From Escherichia phage JLBYU43, in the sequence record NC_105512.1: a DNA stretch of 64,000 bases. One strand, 5' to 3'. Below, in pieces: positions 31,925 to 37,995 of this stretch (positions are counted from its first letter, which is position 1; the number at the start of each line of letters is the position of its first letter). A program made the translations under genes and the position numbers. Under the pieces are notes generated by a model, which worked only from the letters and a program-made list of their open reading frames with translations, made no database searches and was not told the DNA's origin.

Positions 31925-32002
31925 TGGTGGATTGCCTGGGATTCGAACCCAGAACTGACGGATTAAAGGTCCGCTACTCTTATCCAGTTGAGCTAGCAAT
32001 CC
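31925..32002 (-). tRNA. tRNA-Lys (UUU)
   Basis: perfect acceptor GGATTGC/GCAATCC, loop CCTTTAA (C at position 33), CCA encoded. Confidence 0.5.
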
Positions 32003-33787: not shown

Positions 33788-33873
33788 TGGCGGGCCGTGT
33801 AGGAGTTGAACCTACTTTATCCTTGCGGATACGGATTAACAGTCCGGCGCTTAAACCGTTCAGCCAACGACCC
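33788..33873 (-). tRNA. tRNA with anticodon GUU (Asn-type loop) and long variable arm
   Basis: 86 nt; acceptor GGGTCGT/ACGGCCC, loop CTGTTAA, variable hairpin ATCC-GCAA-GGAT, CCA encoded. Confidence 0.5.
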
Positions 33874-34025
33874 TAAATTTATATTGCTGACTAGGATTTT
33901 CACCTAGACGGAGTTAGCACCGTAGCGTGTAGCGGCATACCTCTCCAAACCGTGCCTCATCTTTCAATTACTGAGGCAGTGTTCCTACGCGTGCCTGAAC
34001 TGTTTTAACAATTCTTTCAGCAAAT

Positions 34026-34445: not shown

Positions 34446-34526
34446 TGGTGGGGGATGGAGGACTCGAACCTCCGCGTGGTATACCCGGTCTACAGCCAGG
34501 CGCCGTCGCCACTGAGCCAATCCCCC
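34446..34526 (-). tRNA. tRNA, probable anticodon GUA (Tyr)
   Basis: perfect acceptor GGGGGAT/ATCCCCC and T-arm, CCA encoded; anticodon arm fold ambiguous. Confidence 0.45.
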
Positions 34527-37393: not shown

Positions 37394-37995
37394 TTTAGGT
37401 ATTTTTAAGAACTCTCGTAAAAGTCCTTAAAGATACCCAACGGTAGGTAGGGTCAGCCCCCTCAGATTAAGCTCTGCAGCCCTTCCGTCAGACAATATCT
37501 TCCAGTTTAAGTCAAGGTGACTTTGTGGTTATGTTCTCCGTATGTGAAGAACTCGGTTAGGCTTAGGTCATGACTCCCAGCCTACTGCTGCCGCTCAACA
37601 GGAATTATCGCGAATTACCTGTACTATTGGGCACCATTAGTGACATCTCTCATGTCAGCATTTCCCACTTTGTGGATAGCTTGAAAAACTACTCCGATAT
37701 GGAGAAAGAACTTCACTATCCTAGAAATACCTTCTAAAGTTCTTCTTTAGCCTGGACATAGTTAAATCGTAATAAAACTATTCAGCAGACTAGTTGGTTA
37801 GCCTGGAACCAACTACCGCGTGGTTTAGGCAGTGCGTAACTAACCTAGGAAGCTTTTACGTTAAAAGCATCAGTTATCCAGTTCTTACCGACCGTAGGAT
37901 TCGAACCTACATCTTCCACCAGTTACGGCTTGATAATACCAATTATACTAGGACGGCAGTGTTACTACATAAGTGATTTCCACACACCACTATTA

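What the first reader, a model, noticed from the sequence alone, without database searches (positions are those of the whole stretch)
33788..33873. Type-II-shaped tRNA (86 nt, long variable arm) carrying an Asn-type GUU anticodon loop
Acceptor and T-arm are near-perfect and CCA is encoded. The anticodon loop CTGTTAA with flanking CCGGA/TCCGT matches the E. coli tRNA-Asn anticodon arm as I recall it, yet there is a 15-nt variable hairpin (ATCC-GCAA-GGAT) of the kind found in Leu/Ser/Tyr tRNAs. This could be a one-base derivative of a Tyr (GUA) tRNA or an unusual decoding tRNA.
Basis: partly seen in the sequence, partly recalled or inferred. Interest (0 to 1): 0.4.

Follow-up and report, generated by a model that had tools for sequence, protein, structure and literature searches.

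The report
Phage asparagine tRNA with extra arm
This is a real asparagine tRNA gene of a T5-like phage that carries the long extra arm normally found only in leucine, serine and tyrosine tRNAs; the same odd design turns up in hundreds of phage genomes but hardly ever in bacteria, and I found no paper that describes it.

Summary
Window 33788-33873 (minus strand) is an 86-nt tRNA with anticodon GUU, discriminator G73, an encoded CCA and a 15-nt variable arm (AUCC-GCAA-GGAU + AAA). ARAGORN calls it and Rfam tRNA scores 54.7 bits.

It is not a one-base derivative of a tRNA-Tyr. Its anticodon arm matches host tRNA-Asn, it has G73 rather than A73, and the rest of the molecule is no closer to Tyr than to other isotypes.

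The window is a T5-like phage tRNA cluster. The gene sits in the slot where T5 itself has an ordinary 78-nt tRNA-Asn.

The design is widespread:
- 586 phage GenBank records hold a homologue, from T5-like, T4-like and phAPEC8-like phages.
- At least 126 distinct sequences occur in metagenomic viral contigs.
- Only 19 loci were found in 185,579 bacterial and archaeal species genomes.

Across the family GUU and G73 are kept. The arm stem covaries and is mostly capped by GNRA loops. Its geometry is Tyr-like (3-4 bp, 3-4 unpaired 3' bases), not Ser-like.

Best reading: a working Asn tRNA charged by host AsnRS. The arm is under selection, but its purpose is only inferred; blocking host tRNA-cutting defence nucleases is the leading idea. 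No description was found in the searchable literature. Interest is moderate.

The parts
33788..33873 (-). Whole tRNA-Asn(GUU) gene, 86 nt including the encoded CCA; class-II shape
   Evidence: ARAGORN; Rfam RF00005 54.7 bits; own covariance model R1 90.6 bits
33867..33873 (-). Acceptor stem, 5' strand (GGGUCGU, nt 1-7)
   Evidence: Pairs 7/7 with 33792-33798. All 7 pairs show compensatory changes among 18 relatives.
33849..33864 (-). D arm (GCUG AACGGUUU AAGC): three Watson-Crick pairs plus G13-A22; C16, no nt 17, U in place of A21
   Evidence: Rfam alignment; pair counts
33831..33847 (-). Anticodon arm CCGGA CUGUUAA UCCGU; nt 28-43 identical to host tRNA-Asn; C27-U43 mismatch
   Evidence: blastn against E. 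coli genomes hits only tRNA-Asn, over nt 25-45
33838..33840 (-). Anticodon GUU (plus strand reads AAC)
33816..33830 (-). Long variable arm, 15 nt: AUCC-GCAA-GGAU hairpin plus AAA
   Evidence: Inserted relative to the Rfam consensus. MFE fold. In the MAFFT alignment of 18 relatives all 4 pairs show compensatory changes and 95.8% of cells are paired.
33799..33815 (-). T arm GUAGG UUCAACU CCUAC
33792..33798 (-). Acceptor stem, 3' strand (ACGGCCC)
33791..33791 (-). Discriminator G73 (Asn identity element; antideterminant for LeuRS and TyrRS)
   Evidence: Sequence. G73 in 73/74 and 52/53 relatives. Identity rules from PMC9976931.
33788..33790 (-). Genome-encoded CCA end

Best explanation
It is a functional, phage-encoded tRNA-Asn(GUU) from a widespread phage lineage of Asn tRNAs that carry a Tyr-type long variable arm.

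Shown here:
- The gene is a well-formed 7/5 cloverleaf with the two known bacterial Asn identity elements, anticodon GUU and G73, and an encoded CCA.
- It lies in a T5-like phage tRNA cluster, in the slot where T5 has a normal tRNA-Asn.
- Relatives occur in hundreds of phage genomes of several families. They keep GUU and G73 while their acceptor, D, T and variable-arm stems change by compensatory substitutions.
- The arm has a constant geometry: 3-4 bp, mostly a GNRA loop, and 3-4 unpaired bases on the 3' side.

Inferred:
- Host AsnRS charges it with asparagine and it reads AAC/AAU during infection. I put this at about 0.85.
- The arm is kept by selection. It makes the body of the phage tRNA unlike host tRNA-Asn, so that host tRNA-targeting defence enzymes are hindered while AsnRS recognition is untouched. 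The model case is the PARIS nuclease AriB, which cuts host tRNA-Asn at 40|41 next to the variable region and is modelled as also contacting D-loop U16-U17. I put this purpose at only about 0.3.
For: Gene and fold.

Identity elements:
- GUU and G73 are the determinants for E. coli AsnRS (PMC9976931).
- G73 is an antideterminant for LeuRS and TyrRS (same paper).
- G73 is kept in 73/74 and 52/53 distinct relatives.

Selection on the arm:
- All 4 stem pairs show compensatory changes in an unbiased MFFT-style (MAFFT) alignment, and 0 of 500 shuffles reach the observed score.
- Over the 74 relatives, the variable regions fold with a mean z of -3.75 and show 40 distinct stems; 47 of 71 loops are GNRA.
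- In the second set, 38 of the 52 hairpin loops are GNRA.

Distribution:
- 586 phage records hold a homologue, from Demerecviridae, Straboviridae, Stephanstirmvirinae and others. T5's class-I tRNA-Asn is found in 152 records.
- Viral contigs gave 67 and 59 loci for two anticodon-arm types.
- With the same anticodon arm and T loop, 9 viral loci are long against 26 normal.
- Only 19 loci were found in 185,579 species genomes, several of them in tRNA arrays.

Synteny and co-occurrence:
- The downstream 61-aa ORF is the T5.068 orthologue, so the gene occupies the slot of T5's tRNA-Asn.
- Six distinct viral contigs carry both a class-I and a long-arm Asn gene within a few kb.

Plausibility of the counter-defence idea:
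- AriB cleaves host Lys-UUU, Thr-UGU and Asn-GUU at 40|41, and phage tRNA variants rescue infection (PMC12409363).
- The AlphaFold 3 model has the AriB dimer spanning from 40/41 to D-loop U16-U17. This tRNA has C16 and no nt 17.
- Long-arm versions of Thr-UGU and Lys-UUU also occur in phage contigs.
Against: - There are no charging or expression data for this tRNA or any long-arm relative.
- The published rescue experiments used T5's tRNA-Asn, which is a normal class-I tRNA.
- The cleavage-site sequence U36-A-A-U-C|C41 is unchanged from host tRNA-Asn, so any resistance would have to come from the arm or the D loop.
- Bas33 (HildyBeyeler) has an identical tRNA-Asn and is still PARIS-sensitive. 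Supplying tRNA-Lys alone rescues it, which neither supports nor refutes protection of the Asn tRNA.
- Long arms also occur in isotypes with no known nuclease link, such as Trp, His, Ile-UAU, Met and Pro.
- Class II synthetases approach the variable-loop side of the tRNA (my own knowledge), so tolerance of the arm by AsnRS is assumed, not shown.
- The window tRNA departs from consensus at U21 (normally A21) and has a C27-U43 mismatch.
Confidence: 0.6

Rival explanations
1. It is a functional tRNA-Asn, but the long arm has no adaptive role. An insertion tolerated by AsnRS was fixed once or a few times and then spread among phages by horizontal transfer. Selection only keeps the inserted bases folded.
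For: - Asn identity needs only the anticodon and G73, so the body is free to drift.
- Acceptor stems are identical (GGGUCGU/ACGGCCC) in T5-like and T4-like Klebsiella phages, which points to horizontal spread.
- T5 manages with a class-I Asn in the same slot.
- Low-frequency long arms occur in many other isotypes.
Against: - A one-step deletion would remove the arm, yet it persists in at least 126 distinct sequences with very different bodies and two anticodon-stem types.
- The geometry is constant and GNRA loops dominate.
- It makes up about a quarter of viral tRNA-Asn with one arm and T-loop type, but is nearly absent from cellular genomes.
- Some phages keep both forms.
Confidence: 0.25
2. 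It is a decoy rather than a decoder. The host-identical anticodon arm attracts a host tRNA-Asn-directed nuclease or modification enzyme, and the adjacent arm makes the molecule uncleavable, so it acts as a competitive inhibitor.
For: - The anticodon arm is identical to the host's, including the AriB site.
- The authors of PMC12409363 raise the possibility that overexpressed viral tRNAs inhibit AriB by competition.
Against: - Near-universal G73, a 7-bp acceptor stem and the frequent encoded CCA are what aminoacylation needs, not what a decoy needs.
- It is the only tRNA-Asn in this phage's tRNA cluster, which otherwise holds tRNAs for 17 further amino acids (18 in all; Asp, Phe and Trp are missing).
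Confidence: 0.08
3. It is mischarged. The long arm together with G1-C72, G2-C71, C11-G24 and G73 lets SerRS (or the Tyr-like arm lets TyrRS) acylate it, so some AAY codons are read as Ser or Tyr during infection.
For: - Serine identity rests mainly on the variable arm, is independent of the anticodon, and uses G73, G1-C72 and G2-C71 (PMC9976931).
- A long arm plus G73 was used to predict serylation of allo-tRNAs (PMC5389517).
- The window tRNA has all these acceptor features.
Against: - The arm geometry is Tyr-type (3 unpaired 3' bases, 4 bp). Ser tRNAs in the same pool have 0-1 unpaired bases and 4-7 bp.
- In the 74 relatives, pair 2-71 is G-C in only 29 and C-G, a SerRS antideterminant, in 24.
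- G73 blocks TyrRS and LeuRS.
- The invariant features of the family are exactly the Asn determinants.
Confidence: 0.04
4. It is a pseudogene or a prediction artefact.
For: U21 in place of A21 and the C27-U43 mismatch. The T5 annotation lists several tRNA-like RNAs of unknown function in this region.
Against: 54.7 bits in Rfam; 100% identical copies in other phages; about 80% identical homologues with compensatory changes in every helix.
Confidence: 0.03

Closest known systems
Canonical bacterial and phage tRNA-Asn(GUU), e.g. E. coli asn tRNA genes and phage T5 tRNA-Asn (T5t17)
   Same: Anticodon GUU, A37 and G73. Nt 28-45 are identical to E. coli tRNA-Asn. It sits in the same genomic slot as T5 tRNA-Asn.
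   Different: 15-nt variable arm instead of 5 nt. G1-C72 instead of U1-A72. D arm with three Watson-Crick pairs plus G13-A22. Only about 60% identity outside the anticodon arm.
Bacterial class II tRNA-Tyr
   Same: Long variable arm with a short 3-4 bp stem and 3 unpaired 3' bases. G34 and U35. D-arm style.
   Different: U36 not A36. G73 not A73. The anticodon stem is unrelated. Sequence identity is at background level.
Noncanonical variable-arm tRNAs: nematode nev-tRNAs (PMC3333845) and bacterial allo-tRNAs (PMC5389517)
   Same: A long variable arm combined with an anticodon that does not belong to Leu, Ser or Tyr.
   Different: Those carry Leu or Ser identity and would recode the codon, and allo-tRNAs have 8/4 or 9/3 acceptor/T stems. 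This tRNA is 7/5 and keeps the identity set that matches its anticodon, so no recoding is expected.
Phage tRNAs that escape host tRNases: T5 tRNA-Lys/Thr/Asn against PARIS AriB (PMC12409363), phage tRNA-Thr against P2-OLD (PMC12445682), T5-like tRNA-Tyr against Retron-Eco7 (PMC11555353)
   Same: A phage-encoded isoacceptor of a host tRNA that is a known nuclease target (Asn-GUU is an AriB target), in a T5-like tRNA cluster.
   Different: The known cases escape by point changes or a shortened stem at the cleavage site. Here the site is unchanged and the difference is an added arm. No cleavage data exist.
[quoted passage not shown]
   Same: One isotype exists in both short-arm and long-arm forms (title and abstract only).
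   Different: That is the opposite direction (loss of the arm in a class II isotype), and it is cellular rather than viral.

Membership tests
tRNA (Rfam RF00005) | Cloverleaf covariance-model score at or above the gathering score | tested here: met
   54.7 bits against 29; full-length match 1-71. ARAGORN also calls it.
tRNA-Asn isoacceptor | Anticodon GUU in a 7-nt loop with U33 and A37 | tested here: met
   Loop is CUGUUAA.
tRNA-Asn isoacceptor | Discriminator G73 (AsnRS determinant) | tested here: met
   G at 33791. Conserved in 125 of 127 relatives. Rule taken from PMC9976931.
tRNA-Asn isoacceptor | Aminoacylation with asparagine by AsnRS | not testable with these tools
   No charging data found for any long-arm tRNA-Asn. 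The published rescue used T5's class-I tRNA-Asn.
tRNA-Asn isoacceptor | Class-I architecture (4-5 nt variable loop), as in host and T5 tRNA-Asn | tested here: not met
   15-nt variable region with a hairpin.
tRNA-Asn isoacceptor | U1-A72, typical of bacterial tRNA-Asn and needed only for the GatCAB route | tested here: not met
   The window has G1-C72; 48 of 74 relatives have U1-A72. The GatCAB rule is from PMC9976931. That enterobacteria charge tRNA-Asn directly with AsnRS is my own knowledge.
Class II (type II) tRNA architecture | Variable region longer than 10 nt that forms a base-paired arm | tested here: met
   4-bp stem plus GCAA loop. All four pairs covary in relatives. Geometry compared.
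Bacterial tRNA-Tyr | Anticodon GUA and discriminator A73 | tested here: not met
   GUU and G73. 54 of 59 Tyr tRNAs in the pool have A73.
Bacterial tRNA-Tyr | Sequence relatedness to Tyr tRNAs above that to other isotypes | tested here: not met
   58-66% identity to Tyr tRNAs, the same as to Lys, Cys, Met and Ser. The anticodon-free position-specific scoring matrix (PSSM) does not single out Tyr.
Bacterial tRNA-Ser | Long arm in Ser-type orientation (0-1 unpaired 3' base, stem of 4-7 bp or more) | tested here: not met
   3 unpaired 3' bases and 4 bp, against the Ser distribution.
Bacterial tRNA-Ser | G1-C72, G2-C71 and G73 acceptor set | tested here: met
   Present in the window tRNA, but not family-wide: C2-G71 in 24 of 74. 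Serylation itself is not testable here.
allo-tRNA / tRNA-Sec-like | 8/4, 9/3 or 8/5 acceptor/T-stem configuration | tested here: not met
   Canonical 7/5. Definition from PMC5389517.

The most novel reading that the evidence does not exclude
Long Tyr-type variable arms grafted onto class-I isotypes are a general phage counter-defence design. Asn is the commonest case here, with Thr-UGU and Lys-UUU (the other AriB targets) and further isotypes also represented. The added arm would sterically block host tRNases that read the anticodon stem together with the D loop (PARIS AriB or OLD-type Toprim nucleases, or others still unknown). The few bases the cognate synthetase needs are left untouched.
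Probability: 0.25. Interest if true: 0.75.

Novelty: new variant of a known kind. Interest (0 to 1): 0.55.

Why it matters
Textbook tRNA classification reserves the long variable arm for Leu, Ser, bacterial Tyr and Sec. Here an Asn tRNA with that arm is common in phages. It is more frequent in the phage GenBank collection than the T5-type normal tRNA-Asn (586 against 152 records), yet almost absent from cellular genomes.

If charging by AsnRS is confirmed, a class IIb synthetase tolerates a long arm. That is useful knowledge for tRNA engineering.

If the arm protects against host tRNA-cutting defence systems, it adds a new structural strategy to the phage-host conflict over tRNAs, which so far is known only through point mutations. 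The question is directly testable with phages already in laboratories: Bas33/HildyBeyeler carries an identical gene and Bas28/IrmaTschudi a 97%-identical one.

Tried and rejected
1. Tyr derivative. Rejected on G73, the Asn-type anticodon stem and background-level identity to Tyr tRNAs.
2. Ser identity. Judged unlikely from arm geometry and from C2-G71 in many relatives, but not excluded for the window tRNA itself.
3. Alternative class-I fold or intron. Rfam places the extra bases in the variable region, and the hairpin covaries.
4. Anticodon-free isotype scoring. I built position-specific scoring matrices (PSSMs) on 43 fixed body positions from about 2,200 ARAGORN tRNAs. The result is inconclusive for the window tRNA: Phe, Trp, Cys, Tyr, Lys, Val and Asn all fall within 5 bits. 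Family-wide, Gln or Asn is the top model for 76 of 126 sequences, Ser for 13 and Tyr for 8. tRNAscan-SE isotype models were not available.
5. Covariance-model search to build a large alignment. Model R1 pulled in tRNAs of every isotype, so alignment A2 was not used. Covariation was counted on the MAFFT alignment A1 instead.
6. Direct experimental support from the PARIS paper. Not applicable, because T5's own tRNA-Asn turned out to be class I, and no supplementary files were held.
7. Nine literature searches (only identified the BASEL phage names). None returned a description of long-arm tRNA-Asn. Older subscription papers on T5 and BF23 tRNAs could not be searched.
8. Co-occurrence of long-arm Asn with other long-arm class-I tRNAs in the same loci. 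Only weak: odds ratio 2.1, p = 0.02.

Full report
**1. What is there**

The window is a tRNA-rich region of a T5-like phage (Demerecviridae).
- A 2-kb stretch around the finding matches Salmonella phages PMBT22, rutana and bobsandoy and Escherichia phage SuperGirl at 92-96% identity.
- ARAGORN finds 23 tRNA genes between 27.7 and 37.4 kb, all on the minus strand. Rfam finds the same set plus one more.
- The finding corresponds exactly to ARAGORN's tRNA-Asn (gtt) at 33788..33873 on the minus strand. Rfam tRNA scores it 54.7 bits and places a 12-nt insertion in the variable region.
- Read from the sequence: acceptor stem 7/7 pairs (one G-U), D arm GCUG/AAGC with G13-A22, anticodon arm CCGGA-CUGUUAA-UCCGU (C27-U43 mismatch), a 15-nt variable region AUCC-GCAA-GGAU-AAA, T arm 5/5 pairs, G73, and an encoded CCA.
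- The MFE fold recovers the acceptor stem, variable hairpin and T arm (z = -2.28).

Only the strand was left unstated.

**2. Is it a mutated tRNA-Tyr?**

No.
- Against 5,426 E. coli genomes the only matches are to tRNA-Asn genes, over the anticodon arm (nt 25-45, 100% identity to one allele).
- Outside that arm the tRNA is about 60% identical to host tRNA-Asn. It is equally distant (58-66%) from Tyr, Ser, Lys, Cys and Met tRNAs of this phage, T5, Eps7, a Klebsiella T4-like phage and E. coli.
- An anticodon-free position-specific scoring matrix (PSSM) over 43 fixed body positions does not single out any isotype for the window tRNA.
- The discriminator is G73. In the pool of tRNAs collected here, 54 of 59 Tyr and 87 of 88 Leu tRNAs have A73.
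- By the published identity rules, GUU plus G73 is the E. coli Asn set, and G73 is an antideterminant for TyrRS and LeuRS (PMC9976931).

What is Tyr-like is the geometry of the arm: a short stem followed by three unpaired bases. Among class II tRNAs from the same loci the commonest number of unpaired 3' bases is 0-1 for Ser, 2 for Leu and 3 for Tyr. For long-arm Asn tRNAs it is 3-4.

**3. It is one of many**

*Phage GenBank records.*
- A blastn search of the phage collection finds 586 records with a homologue, 585 of them covering at least 80% of the 86 nt. Most are annotated tRNA-Asn.
- They include T5-like phages of Salmonella, Escherichia, Klebsiella, Proteus and Providencia.
- They also include T4-like Jiaodavirus and relatives (Klebsiella, Enterobacter, Citrobacter, Aeromonas) and phAPEC8-like myoviruses.
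- HildyBeyeler (Bas33) and bobsandoy carry a 100% identical copy.

*T5 itself.*
- T5 has a normal 78-nt class-I tRNA-Asn with a different, partly mismatched anticodon stem.
- That type occurs in 152 records.
- The 61-aa ORF just downstream of the window gene is the orthologue of T5.068 (49% identity). The two kinds of Asn gene therefore occupy the same slot.

*Metagenomic viral contigs.*
- Exact-pattern scans found 67 loci with the arm CGGACUGUUAAUCCG and a spacing that implies a long variable region.
- A further 59 loci have the arm CGGCUGUUAACCG and the same long spacing.
- Together these give at least 126 distinct long-arm Asn tRNAs.
- With the same arm and one T-loop variant, 9 loci are long and 26 are normal.

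*Cellular genomes.*
- The first pattern found only 19 loci in one genome for each of 185,579 bacterial and archaeal species.
- Several of these lie in large tRNA arrays, for example a 34-tRNA array in Micromonospora.

**4. Evidence that the arm is a selected structure**

- In a MAFFT alignment of 18 relatives, made without reference to structure, all four arm pairs show changes on both sides and 95.8% of cells are paired. The whole cloverleaf is 97.3% paired, against 71% in shuffles and 33-48% when the partners are slid.
- Over 74 distinct sequences the variable region is 12-19 nt (mode 15). It folds better than its shuffles (mean z -3.75) and shows 40 distinct stems. Loops are GNRA in 47 of 71.
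- The second set behaves the same way: 38 of the 52 hairpin loops are GNRA, and the commonest number of unpaired 3' bases is three.
- Acceptor stems differ widely (U1-A72 in 48, G1-C72 in 23), yet G73 is present in 73/74 and 52/53.
- The invariants are thus exactly the Asn determinants. That argues for Asn charging and against Ser or Tyr identity.
- C2-G71, a SerRS antideterminant, occurs in 24 of 74.

**5. How it most likely works**

*Shown:* gene structure, identity elements, conservation, covariation, distribution and synteny.

*Inferred, step one.* The tRNA is transcribed with the cluster, charged by host AsnRS and used for AAC/AAU codons. It is the only tRNA-Asn in this cluster.

*Inferred, step two: why the arm is kept.* The leading idea is evasion of host enzymes that target tRNA.
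- Host tRNA-Asn(GUU) is a proven target of the PARIS nuclease AriB, together with Lys-UUU and Thr-UGU. The cut is at 40|41, and phage tRNA variants rescue infection (PMC12409363).
- The published AlphaFold 3 model has the AriB dimer bridging the 40/41 site and D-loop U16-U17, and a U16-to-C change impairs cleavage.
- My geometric inference is that a hairpin projecting from positions 44-48 lies between those two contacts.
- This tRNA also has C16 and lacks nt 17.
- Long-arm versions of Thr-UGU and Lys-UUU also exist in phage contigs.

*Against this idea.*
- The cleavage-site sequence is unchanged from the host.
- No cleavage data exist for any long-arm tRNA.
- Bas33, which has the identical gene, is PARIS-sensitive. 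Supplying tRNA-Lys alone rescues it, which is uninformative about the Asn tRNA.
- Long arms also appear in Trp, His, Ile-UAU, Met, Pro and Glu tRNAs.

I put the functional-Asn part at about 0.85 and the shield function at about 0.3.

*Rivals.* A neutral, horizontally spread insertion (0.25); a nuclease decoy (0.08); Ser or Tyr mischarging (0.04); a pseudogene (0.03).

**6. Comparison with what is known**

It works like an ordinary tRNA-Asn and meets the Asn identity tests. It fails the class-I architecture that all described tRNA-Asn share. It meets the structural definition of a class II tRNA but fails the identity tests for Tyr, and its arm geometry does not fit Ser.

It differs from nev-tRNAs and allo-tRNAs. 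In those a long arm brings Leu or Ser identity to a foreign anticodon, and allo-tRNAs have 8/4 or 9/3 stems. Here the identity matches the anticodon and the stems are 7/5.

It differs from known nuclease-escaping phage tRNAs, which rely on point changes or a shortened anticodon stem.

**7. Novelty and score**

The gene is routinely annotated as tRNA-Asn in GenBank, so as a gene it is known. Nine full-text searches found no description of its class-II shape, its spread in phages or its near-absence from cells. The PARIS specificity paper, which discusses phage tRNA-Asn, never uses the word 'variable'. Older subscription literature on T5 and BF23 tRNAs could not be searched.

I class it as a new variant of a known kind, with interest 0.55. 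It would be a real surprise to tRNA specialists and is directly testable, but it most probably decodes conventionally.

Noticed in passing
window 33874-34025 (-): A 152-nt unannotated spacer lies between tRNA-Cys and the long-arm tRNA-Asn. It is 95-99% conserved in about 200 T5-like phage records. It folds well (-47.3 kcal/mol, z = -2.87) and has no Rfam match. It is absent in IrmaTschudi, where Cys and Asn are 6 nt apart. It may be a small stable RNA like the T5 'RNA' species annotated in this region.
   Followed up: partly
window 31925-32002 (-): tRNA-Lys(UUU) has the anticodon loop CCUUUAA, that is C33 in place of the near-universal U33. Its anticodon stem (GCGGA/UCCGU) is almost the same as that of the Asn tRNA. 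It has C41, like the AriB-resistant change A41-to-C, but keeps U39.
   Followed up: no
window 34446-34526 (-): tRNA-Tyr(GUA) is only 81 nt with a short variable arm. Its loop is CUGUAGA, with G37 instead of A37. T5 and Eps7 Tyr tRNAs are 88 and 91 nt.
   Followed up: no
window 37886-37957 (-): Rfam finds an extra tRNA-like sequence (35.5 bits) that ARAGORN does not call. It has several non-standard pairs.
   Followed up: partly
Loci L004-L088 and L213-L262 (e.g. L074, L059, L189, L196, L024): Other class-I isotypes in phage contigs also carry Tyr-type long variable arms while keeping their own discriminators: Thr-UGU, Trp-CCA, Lys-UUU, His-GUG, Met, Pro and Glu. The L074 Thr-UGU arm AUCCGCAAGGACAC nearly equals the window's Asn arm.
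   Followed up: partly
L006, L010, L055, L076, L118, L169, L173, L196, L218, L236 and others: tRNA-Ile(UAU) genes of 91-95 nt recur, with a 21-25-nt variable region that contains a conserved CCAGAUUAG-like motif.
   Followed up: no
L188, L195, L198, L200, L205 (Saprospiraceae and Bacteroidetes MAGs): These loci hold Asn anticodon-arm and T-arm pattern matches with an 18-nt insert AUGCCGAUAGCUAUCGGC, sometimes two per locus, next to a normal tRNA-Asn. ARAGORN does not call them as tRNAs.
   Followed up: partly
L190, L191, L194 (Micromonospora / Verrucosispora chromosomes): The Micromonospora/Verrucosispora chromosome locus L190 holds a dense array of 34 tRNA genes that includes a 90-nt long-arm tRNA-Asn. 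L191 and L194 carry near-identical long-arm Asn genes among many further tRNA hits, but I did not list their tRNAs. I suspect these arrays are mobile or phage-derived; this was not tested.
   Followed up: no
L207 8953-9030 (-) (phage T5): T5's class-I tRNA-Asn has a weakened anticodon stem (GCAUC/GUUGA) with a U30-U40 mismatch right at the AriB cleavage position. The T5 record also annotates a putative tRNA-like 'rna3' immediately downstream.
   Followed up: no
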